Assembly: GCA_033763455.1 (NCBI GenBank)
Contig: JANRKO010000047.1
Location: 1 to 64,000, forward strand
From: Polyangiaceae bacterium
Lineage (GTDB): Bacteria > Myxococcota_A > Polyangia > Polyangiales > Polyangiaceae
DNA length: 64,000 bases
Direction: 5' to 3'
Part shown: positions 20,086 through 37,970 of the stretch, piece by piece
Layout of the letters: each line of letters starts with the position of its first letter
Numbering within the stretch: the first letter of the stretch is position 1
The notes under the pieces: model-generated
Databases searched by the model: none
What the model was told of the DNA's origin: nothing
What the model saw: the letters and a program-made list of their open reading frames with translations, nothing else
Made by a program: the position numbers and the translations under genes

Positions 20086-20158
20086 GCGGGAGTAGCTCAG
20101 TTGGTAGAGCACAAGCTTCCCATGCTTGGGGTCGTGGGTTCGAATCCCATTTCCCGCT
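20086..20158 (+). tRNA. tRNA-Gly(CCC), integration target
   Basis: Cloverleaf GCGGGAG/TTCCCGC, anticodon arm caagc-ttCCCat-gcttg, GTTCGAATC T-loop, U73 discriminator. Confidence 0.95.
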
Positions 20159-21428
20159 CAGAATGATTCCGAATAGTTAACTCAGTTTCAGAACCCAGCA
20201 CGGCCCGATTTCTTGCACGGGCCGTGCTTAAAAGCTGGGGCTGGGCAGCAAGGGGCAATTCCTTTGCCGTTCCCGTGTCCCGTAGGTAACGATCATGCGC
20301 TTCGTGGGTGGAGTGCCCGGTGAGCTCCATCGCGGTCTGTGAGTTGGTTCCGGAGCGCGCCAGGGCCTGAGCGTACATCCGGCGCCAGCTGTGGAAGTCC
20401 ACGGGGAAGTAATCCTCGCTCCCTTCGAGCAAGTCCCGCTCACGGCTGGTGAGTTTCCGCACGGGTTTAAATGTACTGGTGGCCGGGTCCCAAACATCGA
20501 CACCGAAGGCCCTTCGGAGGTCCCGCCGAAGGTGCCGGGCGTGGCTGTAGGGCTTGCGCCCTTCCCCTGCCCGCTTGCCCTTTCGAACGGGGAAAACCAA
20601 CCCATCCTTGGGGCTCTCGTGGAGCTCCCACCAATCTTTGAGGATCGGCCGGAGCATCTCAGGGATGGCCAGTTTCTGTGCCTTTCCCGTCTTGAGCCGT
20701 GGCGCCCGGCCTTCAACGAAGTTCCCGGCGTCCAGGTTTTCCCATCGGATGGCGTGAAGGTCTTGGGTGCGAAGGCCACCGAACAGGCGCGCAATGCATG
20801 CCATTGTTTGCCGCTCCAACACCGGCATGCGGTATTGAGGCAACGGGTGCTCCCAACCAAGATAGATGTTCAGCTCTTCATCGGTGAGAACGGCGCGCTC
20901 TCGCGTATCGATCTTGGCCTCCTCTGGGATATCAAGCAGATCCATCAGCTGGGGGATTCGTGGATCTTCTTTCCGAAGCCGCTTCCAGACTGAACCGATA
21001 TCGCCGCGAATGTGGACGCACATTTGTCGGCTCAGCTTGAGCTTGGCTGCCGCGTCCAAGACGTCTTGAAGCTCCCCAACCCCGATACGGTTGATAGGTT
21101 CGGCTCCAATGTGCGGGAACACGTACTTCTCAAGCCGCTTGAGCCGGGCCCCTTTCGTCTTGATAAGGCGTTTTTCAACGGCACGGCGTGCCGCTTCCTC
21201 GAATGTCTCCGAAGTTCGCTCAGCGATCGCCTTCACCTTTTCGGGTGAGTCGGTTTCCCGGAGCATTCGGGCCAGCTTTGCCCGTGCGGCGGCCTTGTGG
21301 ATGGTATTGAGGTTGTAGGCCTTCTGCACAGATTCGCCGCTGACGTAGATGGTTAGGCGTGCGCGCCATCCTGACTTGGCCCAGTAGAGTGAGCCGGTGC
21401 GCGGCCGTCCGCGTGATTCAGTTGCCAT
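20097..21428 (-). CDS. int: Tyrosine recombinase/integrase (integrated-state allele reads through att into the tRNA)
   Basis: Catalytic motifs GLRTQD, RLKTG, FHSWRR, LTGHS, DRYL. Confidence 0.9.
   Translation of the reverse strand: MATESRGRPRTGSLYWAKSGWRARLTIYVSGESVQKAYNLNTIHKAAARAKLARMLRETDSPEKVKAIAERTSETFEEAARRAVEKRLIKTKGARLKRLEKYVFPHIGAEPINRIGVGELQDVLDAAAKLKLSRQMCVHIRGDIGSVWKRLRKEDPRIPQLMDLLDIPEEAKIDTRERAVLTDEELNIYLGWEHPLPQYRMPVLERQTMACIARLFGGLRTQDLHAIRWENLDAGNFVEGRAPRLKTGKAQKLAIPEMLRPILKDWWELHESPKDGLVFPVRKGKRAGEGRKPYSHARHLRRDLRRAFGVDVWDPATSTFKPVRKLTSRERDLLEGSEDYFPVDFHSWRRMYAQALARSGTNSQTAMELTGHSTHEAHDRYLRDTGTAKELPLAAQPQLLSTARARNRAVLGSETELTIRNHSEREMGFEPTTPSMGSLCSTN
20114..20162 (+). repeat. 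attL core (49 bp)
   Basis: Identical to 37922..37970. Confidence 0.95.
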
Positions 21429-22278
21429 GTGACTGTCTCCTTGAACGCCGATCGCGCTTCCGCTGGTTCTTACTCTTGCTTAACCCTGTCCCCTGAAAGA
21501 CCCGCGTGGCATGCGAGAGCGCCGCCGCGTCCCCCATTTTCATTCGGGTATCTTGGATCGCCCTGAAGCCCTGTCGGTCGCTTTCGTCGGACGGGAGTTC
21601 GGCAGCATCGAAGACCATTTCACCGTTCGCCCACCGCTCCGCCGCGTTAGGCTCTGTGAGCGCGACGTGCAGCGCGTTTGCGAGCTCAAAAACACGCCCA
21701 TCTCTAAATGCTTTCGTTAAGCCGTCGCTCTGCCCTTTGTTGGTTGCCTCACCCAACCCCAGGATAATTGGATTCACGGGAATGGCGTCGAGCGCCAGAG
21801 TGTCAAAGAACTTGCCACAAGCTGCCCGGCTGAGCGAGGCGTAAGACCTACATGTTAAAGGGCGTTCGTCATACACGGTACATGTCCCGCTTTCCTCATG
21901 CAACAAGGGGCATGGGAGGCGTGCGGTAGCTCGTTCCGTAGCTCGCAGCCCACGAAAACGCAGAGCCGCTTGAGCTACTTTTTCACGCATCCTGAGGAAC
22001 TGGGAATCCGGGAGCGACTCCTTGAGGTACCAGGCAATGAGAATAGCCTCGGAGGCGAGAACCTCCGTTTTCATGTGACAGCAGTAGGAGCACCCCTTGT
22101 GGCACTCCGGAACGCCGTGGGCGTTGATTGTCTCACCGTATATCGTGAACCGGCGCTGGATACGCTCGTGAGCGCCCATCGCAATCCTTAGTGGACTCTC
22201 CGCGTTCGCGTTCTCCAATTCCTGGGCGACGTAAGGAAGCTCCTCGCGATACGCGCCCAGCATAAGATCATCAAGCAT
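21418..22278 (-). CDS. YkgJ/CxxCxxCC-family cysteine cluster protein
   Basis: CHKGCSYCC...CPLL...CTVYDERPLTCR. Confidence 0.85.
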   Translation of the reverse strand: MLDDLMLGAYREELPYVAQELENANAESPLRIAMGAHERIQRRFTIYGETINAHGVPECHKGCSYCCHMKTEVLASEAILIAWYLKESLPDSQFLRMREKVAQAALRFRGLRATERATARLPCPLLHEESGTCTVYDERPLTCRSYASLSRAACGKFFDTLALDAIPVNPIILGLGEATNKGQSDGLTKAFRDGRVFELANALHVALTEPNAAERWANGEMVFDAAELPSDESDRQGFRAIQDTRMKMGDAAALSHATRVFQGTGLSKSKNQRKRDRRSRRQSHGN

Positions 22279-22516
22279 TGTTCCTACTCCCTTCGAGCTT
22301 CCCGAGCTTCATTGCGATCGCCAAAATAAGCTGGGCGAGCCGCAATAAACCTGCATAGACGCTGGCTTGCGTTTGCGCCCGCGAGTTCGGGTCAACGCTC
22401 ACTACCTCTTTGTTCGCATGGCGACGCATCTCGATACCGATGGTTTGGACCTCGTGGCAGGCATCGGCTATCTGCATCGCGAGGTTCTGCCTGGGTGAAC
22501 CTGTAAAGGCGTTCAT
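22271..22516 (-). CDS. Hypothetical protein
   Basis: Overlaps both neighbours, GGGAGG RBS. Confidence 0.6.
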   Translation of the reverse strand: MNAFTGSPRQNLAMQIADACHEVQTIGIEMRRHANKEVVSVDPNSRAQTQASVYAGLLRLAQLILAIAMKLGKLEGSRNNA

Positions 22517-22902
22517 AGCGGCACCCTCCCGCCGAAGCGTGGATCGCCGCCACACTTGGGATCAGTGACCGAGGGAAGAAGGCCCCCAAAGCTGGTGTAT
22601 CCAAAGTCACCACGCGCGCGCATTCGTGCTATATCGATGGGCCTCCCAAAGCTATGCGGTCGATAATCGCTGAGCTGAACCACACGGCTTTCCAGTGCCT
22701 TGGCTTCGCGAAGCTGGCATCGATGGCTGGTGACACCGATGGTGAGACCTCGGAGGAGCGACACGGTAACGCAATCGATGCTTTGGGGTGGCACCCATAG
22801 GCCGGGATTGTCGAGCTCCCTTTTTGTTTTGCAGGTGAGGATCTTCTCAAGTTCGCGCCTGGCTTCCTCGTAGCCCGGGAGGTCCCTTAGCTGGCGGCTC
22901 AT
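22513..22902 (-). CDS. Hypothetical protein
   Basis: ATGA overlaps on both sides. Confidence 0.55.
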   Translation of the reverse strand: MSRQLRDLPGYEEARRELEKILTCKTKRELDNPGLWVPPQSIDCVTVSLLRGLTIGVTSHRCQLREAKALESRVVQLSDYRPHSFGRPIDIARMRARGDFGYTSFGGLLPSVTDPKCGGDPRFGGRVPL

Positions 22903-23117
22903 TGGGGCACCTCTACAAGCTGAACGTCTTCGCGGCCGTCGAGCGCATCGTGCGCGGACACGAGCTCCACCGATAAGTCTAGGAGCTTCTCCAAGAGGTC
23001 ACGCTTATTCGTTTCGATGCTCTGCATGTGCGCCATCGAAATGGCGTCCAAGAGCATCTTGCGGCACACGTCCAAGTAATGAAAGGTGGAGCCGATCGCG
23101 TCATCGCTCATATTCAT
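22899..23117 (-). CDS. Hypothetical protein
   Basis: ATGA overlaps on both sides. Confidence 0.6.
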   Translation of the reverse strand: MNMSDDAIGSTFHYLDVCRKMLLDAISMAHMQSIETNKRDLLEKLLDLSVELVSAHDALDGREDVQLVEVPQ

Positions 23118-23395
23118 TGCGCACCGCCCTTCGGCGCGAAGTCCCCGCGCAAGATGTCAACGAAGGTGAACGCCTCGTAGGCCCCCTTGCAGGCCGCTTC
23201 GAGAGCCTCGTGGAACTCGGAGTCGTCCCCGTTCGCGAGCCCCATGACGTCGGAAAGGCTCGCTCTGAGGCGAGTGAGCGACTCGTGCGCCCCCTCCAAG
23301 TTGTCGATGTGGTGTCGCCAGCGCTCGTGGAGCTCTGCGGGTGCTTCGGCTGGCGGTGTGGGGTGCTTTTTTGCTGTGTTTTGTGTAGGATTCAT
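23114..23395 (-). CDS. Hypothetical protein
   Basis: Helical ORF ending KGGAQ, coupled to the next gene. Confidence 0.6.
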   Translation of the reverse strand: MNPTQNTAKKHPTPPAEAPAELHERWRHHIDNLEGAHESLTRLRASLSDVMGLANGDDSEFHEALEAACKGAYEAFTFVDILRGDFAPKGGAQ

Positions 23396-23470
23396 TTCGC
23401 TTAGTTCCTTCTTCGGAGGAGCTAGGCCATGTGGCTCGGCTGCTAGTAACAGCGCGGGCCACACTCATGG

Positions 23471-23665
23471 CTAGCGGGTTGTTTTGGGTTTGGTTGTCTT
23501 GGGCTTTACCTTGGGCTGAAGCCCGTTGGCTTGGGAGTACTGCCGAAGCACGTAGCGCAGCGCATCGGCGCGGGTCACTAGACCCATCTTCTGCTTCACG
23601 GCATCAAGAATAGCGAGGTCGTCGCTACCAAGCCGGAAAGCTGTTTGAATTAGTAAATCTTTCAC
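23471..23665 (-). CDS. Ribbon-helix-helix (CopG-like) regulator
   Basis: TAFRL..DDLAILDAVKQKMGLVTRADALRYVL. Confidence 0.65.
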   Translation of the reverse strand: MKDLLIQTAFRLGSDDLAILDAVKQKMGLVTRADALRYVLRQYSQANGLQPKVKPKTTKPKTTR

Positions 23666-23795
23666 GTTCAGTATGTATAACGGTCGGTTGACTCTTTCGG
23701 CAACCAAATTCAACCCAACCCCCTCACTTTTCCGTAAGCTCGCGAGATCATTCCATATTCCACACCCCGCACGGTTCTACCACTTCGGACAACGC

Positions 23796-24152
23796 CTAGA
23801 GGGTGACTACCTCGGTAGTTATCTTGCGTACGTGGGTACACGGGGATAGGCGCGGTTTGGAGCTCAGGAGGCCGTAACCGGCTCCGCTTCGTTCCCGCCG
23901 CTGGAACGCTCCAAAGCTCGCTAAAGCACCTCCGGAGCCAGCGTCCTTCACTACGTCTGGCGCGCGGGTTACGGCGCGTAGGCGTTCTGCCTTGGCGTGC
24001 GGGATAGGTTGCCCCTCATCATGAGGGCTAACCTCCTTGGGCTTGCTGTGCTGGTTCTTTCCAGCTGGGTTTGGCGTGGTTGCCGCCTCCGGCACGGTCT
24101 CAATCTGCAGGACTCTTTCAATCTCGTCCGCCGGCTTCCCGCGCTTGGCCAT
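23796..24152 (-). CDS. Hypothetical protein, possibly truncated
   Basis: ORF with GKNQHSK motif. The C-terminal part is unconvincing. Confidence 0.35.
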   Translation of the reverse strand: MAKRGKPADEIERVLQIETVPEAATTPNPAGKNQHSKPKEVSPHDEGQPIPHAKAERLRAVTRAPDVVKDAGSGGALASFGAFQRRERSGAGYGLLSSKPRLSPCTHVRKITTEVVTL

Positions 24153-24460
24153 GCCGGCAACGAGGAAGGGGCGCGCCAGAGAAGCTAACAGCTGCCACCC
24201 AGCGGGCAGGTAGCAGGCCGAAAACACGCTGAATTCGACGGGCCCGAAGATGGCATTTCGGGTGCTCTGGCAGTGTGTTTCGGGCAGGAATCATGCTGTT
24301 TGGTCGACGGACTCGGTTTCTCTAGAGCTGCTCCACACGGTCGAAAGGCTGGCTTTCGTGAGTTTTGCATGCTAGTGCACGTCCCGCTGCACTAGGCGGG
24401 AATCGTCCAGTTTCGTTGCTCCGCGGGCACTAATCCTGCCCCCGGCGGACCGCGATATTC

Positions 24461-24910
24461 TCAACCGGTGCGGGAAATTGGAGCGGGTTCGAGCGTCTCA
24501 ACCGTGTTCGGCTTGTCGCCTTTGAGTAGGCCGGCGATGGCTACTTGGGCCATCCGTGTGACGGGCATCTTGCCGGTCTCCCACCGCGAAACCGTCTCGG
24601 GTTCAACGCCAAGCTCTCGCGCCAGATCGGCCTGTGTCAGTCGGAGAGCCTTGCGAGCGTACTTCAGAGCTCCGCCGTCAATATTCTGAGCATCGCAGAA
24701 CACCACAAGGGCGGCGCCCAGCTCGGACTCTGAAAGCTGTTTCTGTGTGAGCTCATAGTAACCGCAAGCCGCGCATGTGGGCACGCGCAAGCGACCGTTG
24801 TCGTTCACCTTCGAAGCTCCCACCATGATGGTTTGCTTCAGACTTCGCTGGCTAAGGGGCCCACCACATTCGGGGCACTTTCTAGCTTTAGACTTGGTTC
24901 CCGTCGTCAT
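24461..24910 (-). CDS. MqsA/YgiT-type zinc-finger plus HTH antitoxin
   Basis: CPEC..CAAC plus XRE HTH, AGGAG RBS. Confidence 0.85.
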   Translation of the reverse strand: MTTGTKSKARKCPECGGPLSQRSLKQTIMVGASKVNDNGRLRVPTCAACGYYELTQKQLSESELGAALVVFCDAQNIDGGALKYARKALRLTQADLARELGVEPETVSRWETGKMPVTRMAQVAIAGLLKGDKPNTVETLEPAPISRTG

Positions 24911-24923
24911 GCTCCTGCCTTTC

Positions 24924-25208
24924 CTAGAACACGGTGCAGATCCAAACCGTTGCCCCGTCCACGGCGATACCGAGCGAAAGATCGTCCCCGTCGAAGTCCC
25001 TTCCGCCTGAGAGTTTCCAGTTCTCTTCCTTGGCGCGCCACGTTGCGCGGGTGCAACTCAGCACCGCGAGTTCCACATCCACGTCCGAAACGTTGCGCTG
25101 CGCCATTCGGAGATGGGCATGCCGACGATAGCGGAGCTGCCTCAGGCCGGCGGCCCGCTTGGCCAGCTCTAGGACCTCGGAGCTCGGAAGGGGCTGTTTG
25201 CTCGGCAC
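24924..25208 (-). CDS. DUF4258-type toxin (RelE/MqsR-like partner)
   Basis: RHAHLRMAQRNVS..DV...W.L.G.D.DG..L...I.V.....ICTVF, located upstream of the antitoxin. Confidence 0.75.
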   Translation of the reverse strand: MPSKQPLPSSEVLELAKRAAGLRQLRYRRHAHLRMAQRNVSDVDVELAVLSCTRATWRAKEENWKLSGGRDFDGDDLSLGIAVDGATVWICTVF

Positions 25209-25218
25209 TCACGAGCAG

Positions 25219-25248
25219 TGTCTACGGCCGGCTTGATGTTTGATCAAG
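25219..25248 (-). promoter_or_regulatory. TA promoter/operator
   Basis: cttgat-N5-atcaag palindrome, identical to 1540-1569. Confidence 0.55.
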
Positions 25249-25359
25249 TCCCCCACGTCTGTTCAGCGGCAAAAGTGCCCCGTGGCGGACTGGGGGGGAA
25301 GTCTGGGCCACGGGGCAGGGGTTGTGTAGGACGCCTTCACGAGGGACGCAAGCTAGGGC

Positions 25360-25596
25360 TCAAAGCCGCTCCCTTGGCACGCCGGCCGCCAGGCAGGCAG
25401 CCCGGGCCGCATTCGCCGCCAGCGCAATCTCAACCTTCAGGAGCTGGGGCACCCGAGGGTCGCGGGCAGTCTCATGTTCACGCACGGAGGCGCGATCGTA
25501 GGCGTCAAGGAGCTCTAGCTGCTCCGGCGTGAGGCTTTCCCGACGGCGCTCCTCTGCCTCGTTGAAGATGGCGCTGATGCGTTGGCCGGGCGTCAC
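25360..25596 (-). CDS. Small helical protein, paralog of 27791..28057
   Basis: LTPEQLELL...AAGVPRERL, GTGA overlap with the tape-measure-like gene stop. Confidence 0.6.
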   Translation of the reverse strand: MTPGQRISAIFNEAEERRRESLTPEQLELLDAYDRASVREHETARDPRVPQLLKVEIALAANAARAACLAAGVPRERL

Positions 25597-27779
25597 GGTT
25601 TCACCGGGCTAGGCTTGTTCCCGCGGTTCGGCGCCGTTGCGCTGGTGTTTCCCGATATCTTCTCCAGGGAGGTCACGGCTTGCTTTAGCAACGCGTTCGC
25701 CTCGGTAGCCGCTCGGATTTGCTCGGCACGCCCCGCCTCACGTTCGGATTGTGTGATCGCGCCAGTCACACTAGGCCCGCCGCCGGTAACGAAACCACCG
25801 ATCGCCTGTTGGATCACAGACGCTACGCCACCCGTCACGCCACCACCGGTTAACCCGCCCGTGATGGTGTTGCCGGTCATGCCCTTAAGGAAGGTGCTCA
25901 GAAACTCTTGGCGGTCTCGTGGGGCCGAACCCGCGGCAGCGTCGCCTTGGGCGATGATAGCTTGGAGCTCCTTTTTTCGGGCGTCCGAAAGCCCACCGCG
26001 GGCTAGCTCGCCACGTGCGCCGGTCATTGTGTTGAAGTTTTCGGCGCTCTGCCGGATGTTATTCTTGCTCGCGGTGCTGATGGCATCGAAGCCAAGGTCA
26101 ATGATGGCGGAACCCACAGTAAAGGCACCAGCTGCAACCGCAATCACGCCCCCAGCTTTGCCTAGTTGGGTGCTGAGGCTCTCACTTAGAACCTTGCCAA
26201 GGCTTGCCGCTGCTACGTCTTTCGCAACGGATGCGGTCATGGCGAGCATGACGCCGCGCAAGGGGTTTTGGAGTAGGTATTCGGCCAGGTTAGCGGCGCC
26301 TTCGCTCAATTTGGTCACGACGGGAATAAGCTCCACGAACTTCGGAATCATTTTCTGAATTGCGGGCAAGAGGTGCGTGCCAACTTCGATGTTGAACTTC
26401 TTCATCGCCTCTTGGAACTGCATGTCCGCGTCTCCCATGCGGGAGTCGGTTCTCGCTTTGATCGATTCGGCCGAAGTTGACGCGCCGGTAAGCTCACCGA
26501 GGCCAGCTTTAAGGGCGTCTATCCCTGTCCCCTTCTTAACGCCTTCGGCATCTTTGTAAAGCTTGGCGAGTCCTTCAAACACCTTGATTGATTCGCCACC
26601 AAAGAGGCCCGAGACCTGAGTGATGTCGCCCTTCGTCTTCTCAAGGACATCAATCATGATGGCCGAGGCATCGCGAAGCTTCGATGGATCGGTTGCGCTC
26701 TGTACCGTCACACCTCCGCCCGGTAGCGCGGCGAACTTCTTGCGATTCGTCACAATATCGGTTGAGAGGCGAGCCACAGCGGTGGCTGCTTCTTCAGGTG
26801 AAGATGCCCCGCCGCCTGCCACTGCCAACTGAGCAAGCGCGCCCATCTGCTTCATCAGGGCCGGTGCCCCACCTTCGAAACGAGAGGTTGCAGAACCGAG
26901 CTTGCCGAAGATGGTGGCAAGGTTATTCATCTCAACGGCGCCCATGCTGCCTTGCTGGGCCAACGTGCCCATGATGTCTTTGAGCTGCTTCATGCGCTCC
27001 GCCGGGTCTTTGATTTGACCCTTGAGCACGTTGAAGACTTGGCCGGCGGTCGCTCCTAGGTCGCCTAAGTCGGTGTCGGTAGCCAGAGCGAGATCGCCCA
27101 AACTACCAATCAGTTCGCGAGCTGTTTTCAGGTCGCCCGTCTTGGTGACGAAGGCCGACATCCCTTCAAGCGCTTGCGAGCCGGTGAAACCACGAACGCC
27201 ACGCGCGTCGGCTAGGATCTGTTTTTTCTCACCCGGGACCTGGGCTTGGTTGGCGAGCTTGGAGGCCCTCGCCTCCTCTGACATCTGGTTCTCAATGGCG
27301 CCCGCCACCGCGAACCCGCCACCTATGCCCAGGGCGGCACCAGCGAGCCTTCCGACGCCGCCGATACTGTTAGTGACAGAACGGCCAATGGCGCGCCCTG
27401 TGCGGACCTGGGAAGCCTGTGCGGCCTTTGCGGCCCGCTTGGCTTCGCGCTCTTGGGCAGCCGCGATGCGTTTGGCTGAGCTGATAGCCTGACGCTCGGT
27501 CCGCTGAATTGTTTGTAATTCCATCCGTTCGCGGGTGGCCTGAGCCCGCGCTACGATCGCCGCAACCTTTCCTTCGGCGCGAATGCGAGCCAAGGCGAGC
27601 TTGTCGACGCCAGCGGCTGCAGAAGTAGAGGCGGCCCCGGCTGACGGTGTGCGCGCACCCTGCCCAAGCGTCTTAGCTACGCGCTGATTGTGGACCACCA
27701 CGCGCCGCTCGATACCCGCTAGGGCTCGCTCGACCACGGCTGCGTTCGTTACACGAAAATCCCATTCAAGTGTTGCCAT
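25593..27779 (-). CDS. Phage tail tape-measure-like protein
   Basis: 728 aa, Ala/Gly-rich helical, TP901-type core pattern (..LALAT.TDL.DLG..A...L..LAQQG..GAVEM.NLA..FGKL). Confidence 0.7.
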   Translation of the reverse strand: MATLEWDFRVTNAAVVERALAGIERRVVVHNQRVAKTLGQGARTPSAGAASTSAAAGVDKLALARIRAEGKVAAIVARAQATRERMELQTIQRTERQAISSAKRIAAAQEREAKRAAKAAQASQVRTGRAIGRSVTNSIGGVGRLAGAALGIGGGFAVAGAIENQMSEEARASKLANQAQVPGEKKQILADARGVRGFTGSQALEGMSAFVTKTGDLKTARELIGSLGDLALATDTDLGDLGATAGQVFNVLKGQIKDPAERMKQLKDIMGTLAQQGSMGAVEMNNLATIFGKLGSATSRFEGGAPALMKQMGALAQLAVAGGGASSPEEAATAVARLSTDIVTNRKKFAALPGGGVTVQSATDPSKLRDASAIMIDVLEKTKGDITQVSGLFGGESIKVFEGLAKLYKDAEGVKKGTGIDALKAGLGELTGASTSAESIKARTDSRMGDADMQFQEAMKKFNIEVGTHLLPAIQKMIPKFVELIPVVTKLSEGAANLAEYLLQNPLRGVMLAMTASVAKDVAAASLGKVLSESLSTQLGKAGGVIAVAAGAFTVGSAIIDLGFDAISTASKNNIRQSAENFNTMTGARGELARGGLSDARKKELQAIIAQGDAAAGSAPRDRQEFLSTFLKGMTGNTITGGLTGGGVTGGVASVIQQAIGGFVTGGGPSVTGAITQSEREAGRAEQIRAATEANALLKQAVTSLEKISGNTSATAPNRGNKPSPVKP

Positions 27780-27790
27780 GGTAGTTTCCC

Positions 27791-28057
27791 TTAGAGGCTT
27801 AGTCTTTCGCGAGCAACGCCCGCGGCTATGGCCGTCGCAACGGCCTGTTCGTACTTCTCAACGAGAATGTGGGCCTCTGGCTCTCCAGAGACGATCGCTG
27901 CATTGGCGGCCGTGCGGGTGCCATCGGCTTCGGCCAAGAGGTTCATTTGTTCCGCCGTTAACCCACGGTAGCGCGCAAAGAGGAAACGGACCGTAGCGCA
28001 GGCTATGCGCGTGGATTCTGCCTCAAGTTCATCGATGTTTTCGGGGGTGATGTGCAT
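27791..28057 (-). CDS. Small helical protein, paralog of 25360..25596
   Basis: LTAEQMNLL...AAGVARERL. Confidence 0.6.
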   Translation of the reverse strand: MHITPENIDELEAESTRIACATVRFLFARYRGLTAEQMNLLAEADGTRTAANAAIVSGEPEAHILVEKYEQAVATAIAAGVARERLSL

Positions 28058-28058
28058 A

Positions 28059-28190: not shown

Positions 28191-28362
28191 TAGGAAACCT
28201 GTAATTGTGGAAGAGAGAAAACCAAGCGAGCCGCCCCAGGGGGAATCAACACCATCAACAAACCCTGGGGGGCTCAAGCTCGGCGCGGTATTTGGTAAAG
28301 ACTGCCGACTGCCAGCCAGGGCGCGTGGTGAAGAAAGGAGGAAACACGCGCCCCCAAAGTCT

Positions 28363-29698: not shown

Positions 29699-29711
29699 TG
29701 TGTGCCTTTCT

Positions 29712-31762: not shown

Positions 31763-32055
31763 TACGCAACCCCTCCCGTGCGCGCGTGCGTATTGGTTAG
31801 TTCCCAATCCAGCGTCTGCCCGGTGGTAACGTCCAGAACCTCGCCGCTGTTGTCCCGGACGGTAACCCGCCACCTAGCGCCATTGGTGGGTTGGGCGCTG
31901 AACACTTGGGGCTGAACACCAGAGGCCTCAGGAGCGACCGCGGAGAGAAGCAGCGTGCCTAGCGCGGTCCGGCGGGTGAAACGCAGTCCTGGGCCATCCT
32001 GGCGAAAGCGCGGGGCGGAAATGGTGGGGTTCGGTGAGGGGGTAGTATCAGGCAT
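31762..32055 (-). CDS. Hypothetical protein
   Basis: GGAGGAG RBS, TAATG overlap with the next gene. Confidence 0.55.
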   Translation of the reverse strand: MPDTTPSPNPTISAPRFRQDGPGLRFTRRTALGTLLLSAVAPEASGVQPQVFSAQPTNGARWRVTVRDNSGEVLDVTTGQTLDWELTNTHARTGGVA

Positions 32056-32482
32056 GGGTGTGCTCCTCCGGCTCGGGCCGGGGTGGAAGGTGGACGGGAA
32101 GCCCGCCAACAAAACGCGGCATTTCGTGGGTGTTTTCGCTCCGTGCAGAAAATCCCGCGCAAGAAAGCAATCTCTGCCCAACAGAGAGTAAGCGGGAATC
32201 ATGCTGTTTTCGTGCGCCAAGCCCTAAGCTGCCTACGCTTGTGTTCGTTGGGTCGGATGGATGATTGCCGGCGTTGGCGGCGTCAGCTCCGATCAACGTC
32301 GCGAACGAGGGGCGCAGACCACTCGCTAGAAGGCCCCGTGCTGCTCCTGAGCGCCTCTGTGGCTTCGTTTCACGAGGTGCACCCAAGATGCCCAGGCCTG
32401 CCAGGGGGGCAAATGCCGGGTCTGAGATTCCGGGTTTCGGTGCCCACGTGTGTGGCGCTGGTATATCCAATGGCCCCCAGAC

Positions 32483-32648
32483 CGTGTGCTGACTCTCTCT
32501 GGCTAACCAGTGCTGAAGGCCGTCGTGTTCGGACCGTGTGTCGTGTGCTGGCCCCCCTAGTACCCCCCGTGCGTGAGCACACGACACGCTGGGAGCGTGT
32601 GTCGGTGCACACACACGTGTGCTGGCACACTCAACACACGGCACACGC
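32483..32648. repeat. Cluster of GTGTGCTG-type direct and inverted repeats, candidate replication origin
   Basis: gtgtcgtgtgct (32538) and agcacacgacac (32576) are inverted; cgtgtgctggc occurs at 32542 and 32616. Confidence 0.55.
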
Positions 32649-32649
32649 C

Positions 32650-34407
32650 TCATGATTGCACCTCAGCTTTTGCCCACTGCCTGGCGCTCCTTTGGCGACC
32701 GTCGCTCAGGTCAACGGCTCGCCCTGTTTCCAGAAGCTCAGCCATGGTGTTTAGGATCCGGTGGGCTCCCCACTTGTGCCCCCGCTTCTCCAGAGCCACT
32801 TCGAGCGCTCCCCGGCTGAACGTGTTCGGCTGCTCAGGCAGAAGGCTTTCCACCAAGTCGCAGTCCGCCCTGAACCCAACCTGAACCCGGGCCTGTTTGG
32901 CTTCCGCCTTCACTTCGGGCGACGCATGCTCACGGAGACCCGAAGCCGCTCGGAGCTCCTCGGCTTCCTCGGGCGTTGCAGCCCTAAGGACACCCGAGGT
33001 GCGGAGCCAACCGCCACCCGGGAGTTGTTCGTCTTGCATGCGGACCAGCCACAAGGGGTCAGCCTCGGGCGCCAGGTTGTTCTTCGAGTTTTCGAGCAAC
33101 ACGCCCTGAAGCTCAGCCGTCCGAACCTTGCTCAGTGTGAAGGCCGCCCTGAAACCGTTGCGTAACCCCGTTACACCTCGAACATCGGCCCCGCCAGCCC
33201 TGCCACTCGTCTTTGAGCTGTGGTGCGTCACCATGACGCCGGGCTCACCCGTGACACGAATAGCAATCGATTCGACGGCCTGAACAAAGGCGGTTGCAAG
33301 CCCGTTGTCTGATTCAGCGTTGCCTGAAGCGAACCTAGCAAGCGGATCGATTGCAACGAACGCCCATTCGAACCCACCCTTTTCGGCTTCATCGTTCAGC
33401 CGCTGAACTATCGCCTCCAAGAATTCGGTGCGCCGGGGATTGTGCGCTTGATCCACTGACAAGAAAGAAACCTCGTGCCCCGTCAATAGGAATAACAAGA
33501 TCTTCTCTTGGACCTGAAGCCTCTCCTCTGCACCCAAGCCGAGCGCGTTGCAGATCCGATAGAGCCGATCCTGACATTCTTCGGCGTCATCCTCACCCAT
33601 GAGGAGCGCAATGCGTCCGCAGTTAACCTCCGGTTGAAAGGCATCAAACAGCTTGCGCCCGAGGCCCAGGCAGACAGCCATCAAAAGAGCAATGAACGAC
33701 TTGCCCACGCCGCCATCGGCTGCAAGTACGAACACTTTCCCGCGGCGGAGTAGCGGCACGGGCTTGCCTGAGCGGACGTCGTTAAACAACCAACGGCGCT
33801 TGGGCGGTTCGGTAGCTAGATCTAAACTGCTCAGCCAAATTGCTGGCAATTCCATTGGCTTCTGTCGTTCGAGAAGGAGCAAGAGAGCGGCGGCTTTGGG
33901 CCATTCCTTTTGCTCTATGAGTTCCAGAATCTCAGCGATCAGGGTCGCCGTTTCGGCTGATTCCTCTTCCGTGCTCGCCTCGCCAGACTCCGGAGCATCG
34001 TCGGAATCATGCGCTGAACCATTCGTTCCCCTGCCGTTGGTGTGCGGCCTCTCGGCTCTTGGTGGCGCCTGCCTCGGCTGCTTCTCGCCGGCACCAAATG
34101 CACTATTGAGCGTGGCCCTAATCTCCCCATCTCCAAGCCCGCATTGCTTGGCCGCATGGTGTAAAGCCGCGCGGGCCTCGGCTTCACCGAGCTGGCCACC
34201 TGATACAAGTTGCGCGACCGAAAAGGCCGACGTGTTCAGCTGATTATTTCGTTCGCCTTCGGCTGCCGAGGCTACCGCGGAGCATTCGCGCTCAAGTGCC
34301 GCCCTACCGTACGGCGTGCCTCCGTCGACGGCCTTGGCCCGCGGCGTTGAATCATTCGCCGGCTCCGGCCGTTTGCGGTTCTTGCCGATTGCTTCTTCCC
34401 AGCTCAC
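32650..34407 (-). CDS. RecA-like replicative helicase (AAA_25/RepA type) with N-terminal primase-accessory-like region
   Basis: GERNNQLN..AF, Walker A ADGGVGKS, FVAIDPL, VTHHSSK, RG...L, KNN. Confidence 0.8.
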   Translation of the reverse strand: MSWEEAIGKNRKRPEPANDSTPRAKAVDGGTPYGRAALERECSAVASAAEGERNNQLNTSAFSVAQLVSGGQLGEAEARAALHHAAKQCGLGDGEIRATLNSAFGAGEKQPRQAPPRAERPHTNGRGTNGSAHDSDDAPESGEASTEEESAETATLIAEILELIEQKEWPKAAALLLLLERQKPMELPAIWLSSLDLATEPPKRRWLFNDVRSGKPVPLLRRGKVFVLAADGGVGKSFIALLMAVCLGLGRKLFDAFQPEVNCGRIALLMGEDDAEECQDRLYRICNALGLGAEERLQVQEKILLFLLTGHEVSFLSVDQAHNPRRTEFLEAIVQRLNDEAEKGGFEWAFVAIDPLARFASGNAESDNGLATAFVQAVESIAIRVTGEPGVMVTHHSSKTSGRAGGADVRGVTGLRNGFRAAFTLSKVRTAELQGVLLENSKNNLAPEADPLWLVRMQDEQLPGGGWLRTSGVLRAATPEEAEELRAASGLREHASPEVKAEAKQARVQVGFRADCDLVESLLPEQPNTFSRGALEVALEKRGHKWGAHRILNTMAELLETGRAVDLSDGRQRSARQWAKAEVQS

Positions 34408-35042
34408 GGAAGCACCGCCGGTTCCTGGCAGTTGACCCACCGGTACGTTGCGCCGCTGGCATGCCTGCTCGGACCCACAACGATTTGACCGCCACGGCTC
34501 CGAACGTCGATGCCCGGTGCTATCCGTACCGCATTGCCGAAGTTGGCTGAATCTGAAACTCGAAATAACAAGTGAAAGCCTTTGGCCGTCTTGGCCGTGA
34601 GAGTTTGCGGGAGTTTCCCGTGCTCAGCTTCGAGCGGAGCTAAGAGTTCAAGCGCGCCATCCACATCGATCGCGATCACATCGAACCCACCAGGCTGCGG
34701 CCCCATGCGGAGACCAACGTTCAAGCGCCAGTCTTTCTCCAAGCCAGCAAGCAACGCCGGAACGTCGAGCGCTGCAGACTGCCATCCCTGCGCAACGGGA
34801 TGTTTGCCGGCTGCCCCACAACCAGGCCGGCCACAGGTGCACGAACCATCGGCGGCAATGCCGTGTAGCAAGATCGGATGTAGCCCAAGCTTGGCGTAAA
34901 TGCGGATGGCGTCGAGCTTGTCTGTTTGGGCGATCCATTGAAGCCGATCCCACCCCTGCAACTGCAACGGGGAAGCCGAATCCATCAGCCGCTGAACCTC
35001 AGCCTCTGGAACAATCGCATAGGGATCGGGCTTGGTGCTCAT
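34404..35042 (-). CDS. Bifunctional DNA primase/polymerase (Prim-Pol)
   Basis: CTCG..C..GKHP, NVGLRMG, IDVD, T.KG.HLLF, DVRSRGGQIVVGPSRH.SG..YRW. Confidence 0.9.
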   Translation of the reverse strand: MSTKPDPYAIVPEAEVQRLMDSASPLQLQGWDRLQWIAQTDKLDAIRIYAKLGLHPILLHGIAADGSCTCGRPGCGAAGKHPVAQGWQSAALDVPALLAGLEKDWRLNVGLRMGPQPGGFDVIAIDVDGALELLAPLEAEHGKLPQTLTAKTAKGFHLLFRVSDSANFGNAVRIAPGIDVRSRGGQIVVGPSRHASGATYRWVNCQEPAVLP

Positions 35043-35356
35043 GCTTCGCCCCTGCACTGCCGACACACGACGCCTTGGCCCTTGGTCCACCACACGCGAT
35101 CGCCGACATCAATGGCCCGGGCGCAATCGCGACAAAAGCTGTTGAACCGCGAATCAATCCACCGCCCAGGTGATGCCGGTTGGCTCGCCCGCGCAGCTGG
35201 AGCGAGTGCTTGGCACTGACCGGGCTCGTGGAGCTGCAAGCCATGTTCAGCGATCATTTTCGCTAGGATGACGCCACAGGTTCGCGCCTCTTCGGGAGGG
35301 GTGCCAGAGTGCGCGGCACGACTGACTAGCGCCAGGGCGCGTGCCGCGATGCTCAC
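35039..35356 (-). CDS. DUF2786-like N-terminus plus C-terminal zinc finger
   Basis: AL...A...TPPEEART......KMI..HGL and CRDC...CRQC. Confidence 0.55.
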   Translation of the reverse strand: MSIAARALALVSRAAHSGTPPEEARTCGVILAKMIAEHGLQLHEPGQCQALAPAARASQPASPGRWIDSRFNSFCRDCARAIDVGDRVWWTKGQGVVCRQCRGEA

Positions 35357-35799
35357 CTGGAACCCCGCGGAGCTGGCTTGCCACAGCCAAGATGTGCAGA
35401 CTTTTTCAGCTCGCGATGATAGACAATCGAGTCGCCAACCTGGTACCCATTGCCACAAACCACGCACTTGCCGGCATATTTTGATTCCATCGGGATTCCC
35501 ACGAACGGGCTCGGCACCGACATATCGGGCTCACCGCGGGTAGCCTGTGCTTGTGCCGCCGCGGGCTGGCTAGCCACCTCGGAGCGCAGCTTGGTGAGCT
35601 CCTCGATTACCTGAGGAAGCTCCCTATCCCGAAGTGTGCAGCCCTTCTTGGTGGGCAAAAGCTGCCCCGAATCCCCTCGAAAGAAGATCCGCAGGTCCGT
35701 GAACGGCTTACCGTTGTAGGTTTTGCGTGAGATCCGGAGTGTATCGGTGCCACGCTCAAACTCCAAAAGCACCACTCCGTCGGAGTCGTTTTCGCTCAT
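35353..35799 (-). CDS. PC4/YdbC-family ssDNA-binding protein plus zinc finger
   Basis: LRISRKTYNGKPFTDLRIFF..G.LLPTKKG.TL and CVVC...H..C. Confidence 0.8.
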   Translation of the reverse strand: MSENDSDGVVLLEFERGTDTLRISRKTYNGKPFTDLRIFFRGDSGQLLPTKKGCTLRDRELPQVIEELTKLRSEVASQPAAAQAQATRGEPDMSVPSPFVGIPMESKYAGKCVVCGNGYQVGDSIVYHRELKKSAHLGCGKPAPRGSR

Positions 35800-35975
35800 T
35801 GTGCCGCCTCGCTCACCCAAAACTCAGGAGTAAGAATGCAGCGCAATTCCCACCCTTGGGAGCGCCGAAGCTCGGAGGCGTCAATCTTCCCACGCGCTGC
35901 GGACAAGGCCTGAGCAACTTCGTACTCGCCATTTTCAATGGCACGCCGGATCTCGCGATCAAGTGCGGCGCTCAT
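35796..35975 (-). CDS. Small hypothetical protein (59 aa, below the ORF-track cutoff)
   Basis: MSAALDREIRRAIENGEYEVAQ..., ATGA overlaps on both sides. Confidence 0.55.
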   Translation of the reverse strand: MSAALDREIRRAIENGEYEVAQALSAARGKIDASELRRSQGWELRCILTPEFWVSEAAQ

Positions 35976-36133
35976 CGGGTCCGCCTCCCAGCCTTCGCGG
36001 CCTCGCGAAACAGCCCGGCAACCTCGCGTGAAATGGACCGGTGCCGGCGCGCCTGTTGGATCGCCAGGATGCGTTGGCGTTGCGATTCCCGGGCGTTTGC
36101 CGTGGTAGTGGGCTCAACGTGAACGGCGCTCAT
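35972..36133 (-). CDS. Small hypothetical protein
   Basis: ATGA overlaps on both sides. Confidence 0.5.
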   Translation of the reverse strand: MSAVHVEPTTTANARESQRQRILAIQQARRHRSISREVAGLFREAAKAGRRTR

Positions 36134-36432
36134 TTTCCGCCGCTCCCGGTTGCGGCCAAAACTTCCGACCACAGGTATCGAGGCGAGTCGCCGACCTTAC
36201 GGACTGGCAATTTGCCTGCCTTTGTCATCTTGTGAACCGTGGTTGAGCTCACGCTCAACCGCTGTGCCAGCTCCGAAGCTGAGAGGAGTCTCTCAGCGTC
36301 TGAAACTTCATCGGCGAGAGTTGCCCCACCAAGCCGCTGAATTATCACGTCGGCCACAGCGCTGGCCAGTTCGCCGCAGGTCGCGTGAACTGCCAACTTG
36401 CTTTCTAATGAATCCTTGATTAAAGTGCTCAT
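36130..36432 (-). CDS. Excisionase-like winged HTH (HTH_17)
   Basis: LLSASELAQRLSVSSTTVHKMTKAGKLPVRKVG..RY. Confidence 0.8.
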   Translation of the reverse strand: MSTLIKDSLESKLAVHATCGELASAVADVIIQRLGGATLADEVSDAERLLSASELAQRLSVSSTTVHKMTKAGKLPVRKVGDSPRYLWSEVLAATGSGGK

Positions 36433-36514
36433 TGTCTCGATCCTTTGCGCCCCGCTGCTAGAAACAGTTGGGGCGCACGCTTTTCAGCGTCCGGAGCCCA
36501 AGGGGCATTGATGG

Positions 36515-36712
36515 TTATGCAGCCTTTGCAGCCGTTAAGCGCTGCTCAAGCAGTAAGATGGTCCCTGGTGTCACCGGCAAACCGGCAGCAAGACGCATGA
36601 CGGTAGTGTCTGAAATGCCCAGCAAAGCGCTGGTTTTTCGTACCGATCGTTCAGTGATCAGGTCACGGACCTGTTTGACTAGATATGGACTTGCGGAGAT
36701 TGGCTTGGCCAT
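36515..36712 (-). CDS. Small HTH (Cro-like) protein
   Basis: SVRKTSALLGISDTTVMRLAAG. Confidence 0.6.
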   Translation of the reverse strand: MAKPISASPYLVKQVRDLITERSVRKTSALLGISDTTVMRLAAGLPVTPGTILLLEQRLTAAKAA

Positions 36713-36762
36713 GTGGCACCTCTAATCAGGTGTGCCGCAATGGATTCGCTTCTATCTCCGCG

Positions 36763-37719
36763 CTACCGTTTGGCCTTTTTTCTGCGGGAATTATTTTTTT
36801 TGAGGCTCAAAGTGAAGTCCTCAACTAGAGCCCGTGCCGTACGCTTCGAACCACCCTTGTTGAGCCCTACCGATTCCCGCATCTTGTCGATCGCAGTGGC
36901 AGTGAGCTCCGGCGGGACTTCGAGATCCTGAGCTAGCAGGTAGGCCCGGATCTCCTCGCCACTCGCCGGGCCCCAAAACGAGCCAGTGGCGCTCTCCTCC
37001 CGCATTCGAACAAGCTTGGCTTCAACCTTGGCAAAGGCGGGATCCGGCGTCCGTTTAGTTTTGCCGTGTTCCTTTCGCAGGCGTTCCTCTTCCCGGTGCC
37101 TCGCGTCCATTTCCAGTTGTGCGGCTAGGGAGTCTGACCAAGAAGCTCGTTCGCCATAGCGGTAGCCAAAAAGTGCTTCGAAGGCTTGTTCCAGCGCCGA
37201 TGAGCGCTCGAACATCATCATTCCTCCGCGTGCACCACGGAGTAGCGGGGCAAGATCTACTTGCGCACCACCTGCGTGGAAGAGGTGGCCAAGGCTGACT
37301 AGCAGACTCTTGGCGATTGCCTCTGTGCGGGGCGACGGATCGCAAAAGACCTTCGTCGTCCGCCATAGCATTCCGTCGCGATACTCAAAGCCAGCCGGGG
37401 CCCGCTTCTTGTCGTGCCGCCCTTTCTGGTCACGCTGCAAGTGAACACCCGCCGCGTCTCGCTCGTGACGTGTGTTGAGGCCTCGGCTCTCAGGCTCTCC
37501 AGACTGACCTTGCAGGTTATCGAGGAGCGCCATGACTTTAGCCATCGTGGCTTGGACAGAAGGGTGCCCCGGGTGCTTCCGAATTACTTCGTCAAGCTCT
37601 CCCAGTGTCTCTATTAAACCGCTGCCGTCTTGACTCCTTCGCGGAGGCGGCACCACTTTTAGCTTGACCCTCTCAGGCTTCTTCGGTGGCACCTTCCCCA
37701 TCGCGGCGACGGCCATCAT
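36763..37719 (-). CDS. Hypothetical protein
   Basis: 318-aa ORF whose ATG overlaps the stop of the attP-form integrase tail. Confidence 0.6.
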   Translation of the reverse strand: MMAVAAMGKVPPKKPERVKLKVVPPPRRSQDGSGLIETLGELDEVIRKHPGHPSVQATMAKVMALLDNLQGQSGEPESRGLNTRHERDAAGVHLQRDQKGRHDKKRAPAGFEYRDGMLWRTTKVFCDPSPRTEAIAKSLLVSLGHLFHAGGAQVDLAPLLRGARGGMMMFERSSALEQAFEALFGYRYGERASWSDSLAAQLEMDARHREEERLRKEHGKTKRTPDPAFAKVEAKLVRMREESATGSFWGPASGEEIRAYLLAQDLEVPPELTATAIDKMRESVGLNKGGSKRTARALVEDFTLSLKKNNSRRKKAKR

Positions 37720-37921
37720 AGCGCCCAGCCTTGCTGCTGGACTAGGCTACCCAGCATGCTTCGGATGTACGCGCGGGCGGCGCAATCGGCGGCAATCCAG
37801 CGGTTTCTTTCTTGCACCGAATTCTTGCATGGAGATACAGAATCCGCGCTTTTATCACCTACCGCGTTTGAGCCCGGCCCACTGGACAAGCCAGAAACAT
37901 CCTGATTCGAACCAAAAGCAC
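37716..37921 (-). other. Detached 3' end of integrase (attP-form C-terminus)
   Basis: Open frame continuing MGFEPTTPSMGS from the att core for 68 codons. Confidence 0.65.
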
Positions 37922-37970
37922 AGCTTCCCATGCTTGGGGTCGTGGGTTCGAATCCCATTTCCCGCTCAGA
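37922..37970 (+). repeat. attR core (49 bp, duplicated tRNA-Gly 3' half)
   Basis: agcttcccatgcttggggtcgtgggttcgaatcccatttcccgctcaga. Confidence 0.95.

What the first reader, a model, noticed from the sequence alone, without database searches (positions are those of the whole stretch)
20097..37970. att core inside the integrase gene: excision swaps the Int C-terminus
Seen: int has no stop before attL and ends ...MGFEPTTPSMGS-LCSTN* antisense within the tRNA (443 aa). At attR the same core peptide continues in frame as MGFEPTTPSMGS-CAFGSNQ...GWAL* (37958..37716). Circularisation would yield an Int of about 506 aa. That tail's TGA overlaps the ATG of 36763..37719 (ATGA), which argues it is genuinely translated in the excised form. 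Known: myxophage Mx8 has attP within int, and integration alters the C-terminus and activity. Inference: two Int isoforms control directionality or stability here.
Basis: partly seen in the sequence, partly recalled or inferred. Interest (0 to 1): 0.78.

Follow-up and report, generated by a model that had tools for sequence, protein, structure and literature searches.

The report
Integrase gene split by its own attachment site
A 17.8-kb mobile element in a myxobacterial glycine tRNA gene has its recombination site inside its own integrase gene, so insertion swaps the enzyme's conserved helical tail for five residues, a trick already known from Myxococcus phage Mx8.

Summary
A tyrosine integrase gene (20097-21428, minus strand, 443 aa) runs antisense into an intact tRNA-Gly(CCC). 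A 49-nt exact copy of the tRNA's 3' part lies 17,808 bp away. There the same reading frame continues for 68 codons and stops in an ATGA overlap with the next gene. Excision would give a 506-aa integrase.

- Of the 120 listed homologues, 85 carry an antisense-tRNA peptide after the catalytic tyrosine. They fall into a short class (integrated form) and a long class (attP form).
- 17 long forms end in the same helix motif as the window's orphan tail (AADxALxAYL).
- Seven further orphan tails of this kind lie at attR-type junctions in other Polyangiaceae genomes.
- In an AlphaFold model of a 524-aa relative, the att-encoded peptide sits in a disordered linker beyond the canonical lambda-Int fold. 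A confident C-terminal helix follows it.

The principle is known from phages Mx8 and Mx9, and this scan has noted it before on other DNA. This is therefore a new member of a known kind, seen here in the integrated state. Different activity or stability of the two forms remains untested. No read evidence for excision was obtained.

The parts
20086..20159 (+). tRNA-Gly(CCC), intact; integration target, regenerated at attL
   Evidence: ARAGORN. Same-genus genomes have the same tRNA with no element behind it.
20114..20162 (+). att core copy at attL: tRNA positions 29-74 plus 3 nt
   Evidence: 49-nt exact direct repeat.
20097..21428 (-). int, prophage form, 443 aa. A lambda-Int-type tyrosine recombinase; the last 17 codons are read antisense off the tRNA
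   Evidence: PF00589 E 2.2e-10, 41 bits against a cut-off of 27.1; PF22022 at 25.5 bits, below its cut-off of 27. R220, K246, H346, R349, H378 and Y381 are invariant in alignment A1. The start overlaps the stop of ORF 21418-22278.
21418..22278 (-). CxxCxxCC-domain protein, upstream of int and overlapping it
   Evidence: PF03692 E 5.2e-9.
24461..24910 (-). HTH_3 regulator (repressor-like)
   Evidence: PF01381 and PHROG transcriptional regulators.
25593..27779 (-). 728-aa protein, tape-measure-like (a lead only)
   Evidence: ESM Atlas features score 0.96 to PF10145-bearing clusters. No Pfam or PHROG hit.
32650..34440 (-). AAA_25 ATPase, primase/helicase-associated
   Evidence: PF13481 E 1.6e-26; PHROG primase/helicase families.
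34404..35093 (-). Prim-Pol primase/polymerase
   Evidence: PF09250 E 7.7e-26.
35353..35820 (-). PC4-like single-strand DNA-binding protein
   Evidence: PF02229 E 5.4e-10.
36130..36432 (-). HTH_17 (MerR/Xis-type) protein, candidate excisionase
   Evidence: PF12728 E 5.9e-7; PHROG excisionase families.
36763..37719 (-). ORF318, unknown function; its ATG overlaps the tail's TGA (ATGA)
   Evidence: Gene-like GC by codon position, 0.67/0.47/0.63. No family.
37716..37922 (-). Orphan C-terminal tail of the attP-form Int: 68 codons plus stop. A linker followed by a conserved helix (...NRWIAADCAARAYIRSMLGSLVQQQGW..)
   Evidence: AlphaFold on the tail alone gives a helix at residues 36-63.
37922..37970 (+). 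att core copy at attR: the displaced 3' part of the tRNA
   Evidence: ARAGORN finds no whole tRNA there.

Best explanation
A 17.8-kb integrative, phage-related element sits in the tRNA-Gly(CCC) gene of a Polyangiaceae bacterium. Its lambda-Int-type tyrosine integrase belongs to a large Polyangiaceae family in which the attachment site lies inside the 3' end of int. The site sits 33-50 codons after the catalytic tyrosine, in a disordered linker beyond the canonical recombinase fold. In the free (attP) form the gene encodes 506 aa and ends in a conserved amphipathic helix. Integration moves that helix and its linker to attR, and the gene instead ends after 5 residues read off the antisense tRNA, giving 443 aa. 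Both forms keep every catalytic residue. Shown here: the architecture, its conservation, and the two forms in nature. Inferred: only the 443-aa form can be made from the integrated element, so it must carry out excision, probably with the HTH_17 Xis-like protein (36130-36432). Only the excised circle can make the 506-aa form, which would be the efficient integrase. This follows what is reported for Mx8 Int and IntX. The helix probably acts on the enzyme itself, by docking or in assembly of the recombination complex. Excision also restores a continuous co-directional gene string from int through the tail into ORF318.
For: Anatomy.
Insertion: in 3 of 3 same-genus genomes the tRNA is followed about 100 bp later by the homologue of window 39363-40180, with no element.
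Family trait, proteins: 85 of 120 listed homologues have an antisense-tRNA peptide after the catalytic Tyr. Controls gave 0 of 120 in the protein body and 1 of 120 in reversed tails. In 43 the protein ends within 8 aa of the match, and 32 continue for 42-105 aa.
Family trait, loci: in 44 of 79 related loci with a Tyr anchor the int ORF ends inside a whole antisense tRNA. That is 43 of 71 genome loci and 1 of 8 viral contigs, over 14 tRNA species. Five of the 8 viral loci (L085-L088, L091) are long forms without a whole tRNA and show tRNA-like core peptides by eye.
Tail conservation: 17 of the 120, all 488-531 aa, match the window's tail at their very C-terminus. The profile built without the window finds the attR frame at E 1.9e-7.
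Orphan tails elsewhere: a tail profile hit 16 places in 13 of 200 other family genomes. In 7 places the frame has an antisense-tRNA peptide at E<=1e-6, then a linker, then the helix at the frame's end, with no Int body and no whole tRNA. Genome G001 (Int 48% identical, same tRNA-Gly) has an attR-type junction on another contig with an open 117-aa tail of another class.
Structure: in the AlphaFold model of the 524-aa relative P0009, pLDDT is above 90 up to about residue 400 and 41-64 over about 410-495, which includes the core peptide. Helix 497-523 has pLDDT 86-95. Matches to lambda Int (Z 17.4), Tn1549 Int and Cre end at model residue 414-421, so the swapped part lies outside the known fold.
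Precedent: Mx8.
Against: No direct evidence that this copy excises. The only runs found hold short low-depth contigs, and no attP or attB joint was seen.
The tail has no codon-position GC signal.
The element is small, and no capsid, portal or terminase was recognised, so it may be a remnant.
Activity differences between the forms are assumed from Mx8, whose Int is not detectably similar by BLASTP (E 0.67). It is related only remotely by profile: 96% probability, over the N-terminal and core-binding part and the first half of the catalytic domain.
Docking of the helix could not be checked.
ORF318 has no homologue behind the tails of the 88 related loci.
Confidence: 0.78

Rival explanations
1. 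Frozen remnant. The element is a deleted prophage that no longer excises, so the split int and orphan tail are relics and no isoform switching happens in this host.
For: It is only 17.8 kb. It has a tape-measure-like gene but no recognised capsid, portal or terminase. No joint was seen in the contigs laid.
Against: The att cores are 49 of 49 identical. The minus-strand ORFs of the element that were examined are open. The tail keeps the family motif and its stop. A primase/helicase module and an Xis-like gene are present. The read data were too thin to count as evidence of absence.
Confidence: 0.25
2. Neutral run-on. The extension past the core has no function; the frame merely stays open over the attP arm and the terminal motif reflects DNA-level constraints such as arm-type binding sites.
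For: There is no codon-position GC signal in the tail. The opposite strand is also open there. Short words are shared by the two arms: an 11-mer at 37762 and 20371, and TTCTTGCA-type words.
Against: The motif is conserved at the protein level among integrases only 41-51% identical that use different tRNA cores. It always sits at the very C-terminus, followed by a stop. It is predicted as a confident helix. Three tail classes recur as modules.
Confidence: 0.08
3. Stability switch. The tail is a degradation signal, as in the integration-dependent immunity of mycobacteriophage BPs, so that the free-form Int is short-lived and the prophage form stable.
For: The analogy with C-terminally tagged Int and Rep in BPs-type phages (passages of PMC3694055). 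The tail is tethered by a disordered linker.
Against: The tails share an internal amphipathic helix, not a common C-terminal end. No ssrA-like ending was seen, but this was judged by eye only. In Mx8 the reported effect is on recombination activity and specificity.
Confidence: 0.12

Closest known systems
Myxococcus phage Mx8 Int (IntP) and its prophage form IntX
   Same: attP lies inside the int coding sequence downstream of the catalytic residues. The target is a tRNA gene (recalled, not in the passages read). Integration gives int a new 3' end while leaving an active enzyme with altered properties. The host is in the phylum Myxococcota. Mx8 Int also carries a T-arm-like peptide (..STGLEP..) followed by a long tail.
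   Different: There is no significant sequence similarity: BLASTP E 0.67, no tblastn hit in the phage collection, and only a remote profile match. Tail profiles do not recruit the Mx8 tail. Mx8 has its excisionase uoi directly upstream of int, whereas here the Xis-like gene is on the far side of attP. Mx8 is a 49.5-kb phage and this element is 17.8 kb.
Myxococcus phage Mx9 Int
   Same: Said in the review to integrate by a similar principle, with a single int gene and two attB sites. That its attP is inside int and its target is tRNA-Gly is my recollection only.
   Different: No sequence was available here for comparison, and the primary paper is not held.
SSV-type (suicidal) integrases of archaeal viruses
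   Same: The att site lies inside the integrase gene, so integration changes the gene (passage of PMC5861418; abstract start of PMC7253208 in the listing).
   Different: There the gene is split into two parts and disrupted. Here all catalytic residues stay in one ORF and only a tail beyond the fold is exchanged.
Integration-dependent immunity of mycobacteriophages (BPs type)
   Same: attP lies inside a coding sequence, so viral and prophage forms of a protein differ at the C-terminus, and integration itself is the switch.
   Different: There the gene crossed is the repressor, and the tail is a degradation tag. Here it is the integrase, and the tail is a conserved helix.
Lambda integrase (fold)
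   Same: Three-domain tyrosine recombinase. The model of relative P0009 aligns to lambda Int with Z 17.4, rmsd 3.4 over 269 residues, and to full-length 1z1b from model residue 34.
   Different: Lambda Int ends where this family's canonical fold ends (model residue about 414). The roughly 100-residue linker plus helix has no counterpart.

Membership tests
Tyrosine recombinase, phage integrase family (PF00589) | Match to the family profile above the curated cut-off | tested here: met
   41 bits against a cut-off of 27.1, E 2.2e-10.
Tyrosine recombinase, phage integrase family (PF00589) | Catalytic R-K-H-R-H/W-Y residues present | tested here: met
   R220, K246, H346, R349, H378 and Y381 are invariant in the 28-sequence alignment A1. 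All lie upstream of the att core. The assignment of roles is from general knowledge of the family.
Tyrosine recombinase, phage integrase family (PF00589) | Lambda-Int-like fold with core-binding and catalytic domains | tested here: met
   Tested on relative P0009 (46% identical to the window's Int), not on the window's protein. Z 17.4 to 1z19_B and 17.2 to Tn1549 Int.
Mx8-type arrangement (attP inside int) | att core inside the int ORF, downstream of the catalytic Tyr | tested here: met
   The core occupies codons 423-439 of 443, and Tyr is at 381.
Mx8-type arrangement (attP inside int) | Integration gives int a different C-terminus, with the alternative end in frame at the other junction | tested here: met
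   LCSTN* at attL; 68 residues in the same frame at attR.
Mx8-type arrangement (attP inside int) | The two forms differ in recombination activity or specificity | not testable with these tools
   Needs recombination assays. For Mx8 this is stated in the review.
Mx8-type arrangement (attP inside int) | Sequence kinship with Mx8 Int | tested here: not met
   BLASTP E 0.67. No tblastn match in 50,697 phage records. hhalign gives 96% probability over residues 68-285 only, as expected between any two tyrosine recombinases of this type. It is therefore the same arrangement but not the same subfamily.
SSV-type split integrases | Integration disrupts the gene into two parts, leaving no complete enzyme | tested here: not met
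   The complete catalytic domain is retained in the 443-aa form.
Integration-dependent immunity | attP inside the repressor gene; the C-terminal tag is removed on integration | tested here: not met
   The gene crossed is int. The HTH_3 regulator at 24461-24910 is far from both junctions.

The most novel reading that the evidence does not exclude
The conserved terminal helix, which comes in at least three exchangeable classes, is a state sensor used throughout a large family of Polyangiaceae mobile elements. Tethered by a linker whose sequence is free to encode any tRNA core, it docks on the recombinase or its tetramer and makes the enzyme an integrase only when the element is free. Excision at the same time rebuilds a translationally coupled string from int into the downstream early genes. 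The element thus reads its own topology at both the protein and the operon level.
Probability: 0.3. Interest if true: 0.55.

Novelty: new member of a known kind. Interest (0 to 1): 0.32.

Why it matters
It gives a clean natural example of the integrated, "after" state of an Mx8-type integrase. Both halves sit in one window, in an uncultured Polyangiaceae lineage, and the integrase has no detectable sequence similarity to Mx8's. Together with the census it shows that the arrangement is the rule for a whole integrase family using at least 14 tRNA targets. It also shows that what is exchanged is a discrete, conserved helix on a disordered tether. That makes the old Mx8 idea, that an enzyme regulates itself by rewriting its own gene, testable by a simple helix deletion. 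It also flags these integrases for annotation pipelines, which will mis-call their ends, and for use as myxobacterial integration tools.

Tried and rejected
- Read evidence for excision. One search found three coded runs of one study, kept as contigs, sharing 0.11, 0.00 and 0.02 of the sampled words; no RNA holder was listed. Laid on 19500-38500 they gave short low-depth pieces and no joints. The rows with letters between the two sides are tRNA-like pieces of other organisms. Nothing can be said on excision or expression.
Docking of the helix is therefore unchecked.
- tblastn of Int against the phage collection gave no match.
- A resemblance seen by eye between the Mx8 tail (..QLVDASLMALERLAAAL..) and class B tails was not supported. 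jackhmmer seeded with a class B tail recruited 14 of the 121 proteins searched (the 120 homologues plus Mx8 Int) but not Mx8 Int.
- Codon-position GC gave no coding signal for the tail.
- The sigma-70-type promoter scan of 36000-38400 found one weak site, inside the Xis-like gene, and nothing near attR.
- ORF318 has no Pfam or PHROG family and no usable Atlas hit, and no homologue in the 88 related loci.
- The primary Mx8 and Mx9 papers (Tojo 1996, Magrini 1999, Julien 2003) are not held. They are known to me only from the reference lists and passages of the review, and from recall.
- Searches for a description of this Polyangiaceae integrase family or its tail helix found only the Mx8-centred papers (terms such as Mx8, intP, attP, "within the integrase gene", "upon integration", myxo). 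This does not show that none exists.
- The scan's earlier notes, looked up by place and by sequence, returned nothing.
- The window's tail folded alone, as a single sequence, gave a helix at 36-63 with pLDDT only 55-72. This cannot be compared fairly with the 86-95 seen in the full-length relative, which had an alignment behind it.


Full report
**1. What is in the sequence**

ARAGORN finds an intact tRNA-Gly(CCC) at 20086-20159 on the plus strand. A 443-aa ORF on the minus strand (20097-21428) runs into it from the right. It ends ...EREMGFEPTTPSMGSLCSTN*, with its TGA in the D-arm of the tRNA.

A direct repeat of 49 exact bases joins 20114-20162 to 37922-37970, and it is 94% identical over 63 bases. 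A 26-nt part of it occurs only at these two places in the window, with none expected by chance. The second copy is the 3' part of the tRNA only; no whole tRNA is called there.

On the minus strand at this second copy the same peptide, MGFEPTTPSMGS, is read in frame. It continues for 68 codons (CAFGSNQ...NRWIAADCAARAYIRSMLGSLVQQQGWAL*). The TGA overlaps the ATG of a 318-aa ORF, 36763-37719.

The two junctions diverge at codon 439. The excised form would have 438 + 68 = 506 aa.

**2. It is an insertion**

Three of three same-genus genomes have the upstream gene and the tRNA. About 100 bp later they have the homologue of window 39363-40180. The 17.8-kb element is therefore absent there. So is a further 1.4 kb (37971-39360); see the passing notes.

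The ORFs of the element taken as its genes all lie on the minus strand. Recognised functions are:
- Int (PF00589) and a CxxCxxCC protein whose stop overlaps the int start;
- an HTH_3 regulator;
- an AAA_25 ATPase, a Prim-Pol primase and a PC4-like protein;
- an HTH_17 Xis-like protein.

A 728-aa protein resembles tail tape-measure proteins in the Atlas feature search only. No capsid, portal or terminase was recognised. The element is phage-related but too small for a complete tailed phage. It may be a satellite-like element or a remnant.

**3. The arrangement is a family trait**

The integrase has 247 homologues at E<=0.001 among the 8000 candidates scored. The best 120 were listed, at 41-51% identity and 412-653 aa. 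Related loci come from Polyangiaceae, Polyangiales and other Myxococcota genome bins (79 loci) and from 9 viral contigs.

I built a library of antisense translations of 102 tRNA genes, taken from the window's genome and the loci.
- 85 of the 120 homologues carry such a peptide after the catalytic tyrosine.
- The controls gave 0 of 120 in the protein body and 1 of 120 in reversed tails.

The 85 proteins fall into three groups:

| Group | Proteins | tRNA match | Interpretation |
|---|---|---|---|
| Protein ends within 8 aa of the match | 43 | mostly 17-25 aa (range 10-25; the whole tRNA read backwards) | integrated form |
| Protein continues 42-105 aa | 32 | mostly 12-18 aa (3' part of a tRNA only) | attP form |
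| Protein continues 12-35 aa | 10 | 14-25 aa, seven of them 23-25 | mostly read-through of a whole tRNA |

At the DNA level, 79 of the 88 loci gave a usable tyrosine anchor. In 44 of these 79 the int ORF ends inside a whole antisense tRNA. That is 43 of 71 genome loci and 1 of 8 viral contigs, over 14 tRNA species, five of them Gly-CCC. Five of the 8 viral loci (L085-L088, L091) are long forms without a whole tRNA, as expected for free phage genomes.

**4. The tail is conserved**

A search seeded with the window's 68-aa tail converged on 17 of the 120 homologues. All are 488-531 aa, and each is matched at its very C-terminus. The shared motif is PC[KR]N..., then about 10 residues, then AA[DE]xALxAYLxxxAxxxA.

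A profile of these 17 tails without the window's sequence picks the attR frame as the best of 1314 six-frame segments of the window (E 1.9e-7, next best 0.012). Recruitment was seeded with the window, so this is not fully independent.

A second tail class (LLDAxLADAxLxxALRGLAxR) is linked to the first by iterated search; the two together cover 23 of the 120. A third class (..QWDVVxxLAxELxARR..SLDAARKxGG) is separate.

With the tail profile I searched 200 other genomes of the same family. 13 had hits, at 16 places.
- In 7 places the frame carries an antisense-tRNA peptide (E<=1e-6), then a linker, then the helix at the end of the frame. There is no Int body and no whole tRNA nearby. These are orphan tails at attR-type junctions, like the window's.
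- Two more are weaker (L110, L121).
- One is a full attP-form gene (L107).
- One has a tail without a recognisable core (L108).
- One is odd (L120).
- Four look spurious.

A further case lies in genome G001. Its Int is 48% identical and ends in the same tRNA-Gly(CCC). A second contig there has the partial tRNA followed in frame by an open 117-aa tail of the third class.

**5. Where the swapped part sits in the protein**

The AlphaFold model of the 524-aa relative P0009 was built from a 77-sequence alignment (mean pLDDT 85.9, pTM 0.74).
- It is confident up to about residue 400.
- It drops to pLDDT 41-64 over about 410-495. By the positions this stretch contains the tRNA-encoded peptide.
- It ends in helix 497-523 with pLDDT 86-95.

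Structural matches to lambda Int (Z 17.4, rmsd 3.4, 269 residues), Tn1549 Int (Z 17.2) and Cre (Z about 15-16) all end at model residue 414-421. That point corresponds to the last residues of those enzymes. The exchanged part is thus an appendage beyond the canonical fold: a tether whose amino-acid sequence can be dictated by a tRNA gene, plus a terminal helix.

The window's own tail folded alone gives the same layout, with residues 1-35 disordered and a helix at 36-63, at low confidence.

**6. How it most likely works**

Shown: two gene forms exist, defined by topology. Both have all catalytic residues. The conserved helix is present only in the free form.

Inferred from topology: the integrated element can express only the 443-aa form. 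Self-excision must therefore be done by that form, presumably with the HTH_17 protein. The 506-aa form can be made only after excision or on entry, when integration is the relevant reaction.

Inferred from Mx8: the review states that integration creates a new 3' end of int, which does not inactivate the enzyme but modifies its specificity and efficiencies, as a switch. The long form here would then be the efficient integrase.

The ATGA overlap with ORF318 is compatible with translational coupling across attP. Similar 4-nt overlaps with downstream ORFs of 72 aa or more recur in L074/L107, L087, L086, L077, L078, L109, L110, L115 and L094. However, any TGA preceded by A, G or T gives such an overlap, the downstream genes differ between relatives, and ORF318 has no homologue behind related tails. 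I weight this lightly.

**7. Comparison with what is known**

The closest known system is Mx8 Int/IntX. Its attP lies within int, and Mx8 is cited together with SSV as an integrase that extends across attP. The Mx8 protein itself shows a T-arm-like peptide followed by a long tail.

The window's Int is not detectably similar to it: BLASTP E 0.67, no tblastn hit in the phage collection, and only a remote profile match. It works like Mx8 Int without belonging to its subfamily.
- It is not an SSV-type split integrase, because the catalytic domain stays whole.
- It is not an integration-dependent immunity system, because the gene crossed is int and not the repressor.

This scan has noted the same arrangement before on other DNA, mostly in free phage genomes of myxobacteria, including a note that it is the rule in a large integrase family unlike Mx8's. 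I reached the same reading from my own calls before seeing those notes.

**8. Verdict**

This is a new member of a known kind, of moderate to low interest. Its value lies in showing the integrated state with both halves intact, and in defining the exchanged module as a conserved helix on a disordered tether.

Noticed in passing
window 37971-39360: This 1.4-kb stretch between attR and the next conserved host gene is also absent from the empty sites of the three same-genus genomes. It holds ORF 38100-39260 (-), 386 aa, Cys- and Gly-rich with a signal-like start. Likeness between the attL and attR sides runs about 17 nt (8 codons, ..NHSERE against ..NYSERE) beyond the 49-nt core. It may be the remnant of an older related element at the same tRNA.
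   Followed up: partly
window 20197-20228: An 11-bp perfect inverted repeat (AGCACGGCCCG ... CGGGCCGTGCT) lies just behind the regenerated tRNA, inside the int coding sequence. The empty site of a relative has a different hairpin at the same place (L097 about 1925-1950). The element may supply a replacement tRNA terminator.
   Followed up: no
window 37762-37772 and 20371-20381; 37808-37817 and 20209-20218: Short words are shared by the two attP arms: an 11-mer, CGGATGTACGC, in inverted orientation, and a 10-mer, TTTCTTGCAC, in direct orientation. These are candidate arm-type Int binding sites lying in coding sequence on both sides of the core.
   Followed up: no
L118 (G184:C4) and L122 (G184:C83): One genome holds two orphan tails with the same last ~70 residues, but they sit behind different tRNA-derived core peptides (Val-like and Arg-like). 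This suggests tails and cores are exchanged as modules, or two sister elements lie in different tRNAs.
   Followed up: no
L120 (G105:C814) 1249-1785: A tail-like helix (AAEAALDAYL) lies in a frame that reads through a whole tRNA-Cys in the sense direction, unlike all the other cases.
   Followed up: no
window 25593-27779: The 728-aa ORF resembles phage tail tape-measure proteins in the language-model feature search (0.96, 187 shared features), yet has no Pfam or PHROG hit.
   Followed up: partly
window 19457-19510 and 19507-19537 / 19578-19608: A 31-nt exact tandem-like repeat lies upstream of the tRNA. Nearby 26-53-nt stretches (within about 19443-19511) match at least 8 other contigs of the same genome at 80-97% identity, making this a short dispersed repeat.
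   Followed up: no
G000:C19:2266-2709 (L002): A second, partial integrase match in the same genome: 35% identity to residues 296-441, in an open frame of 250 aa. It was not examined.
   Followed up: no
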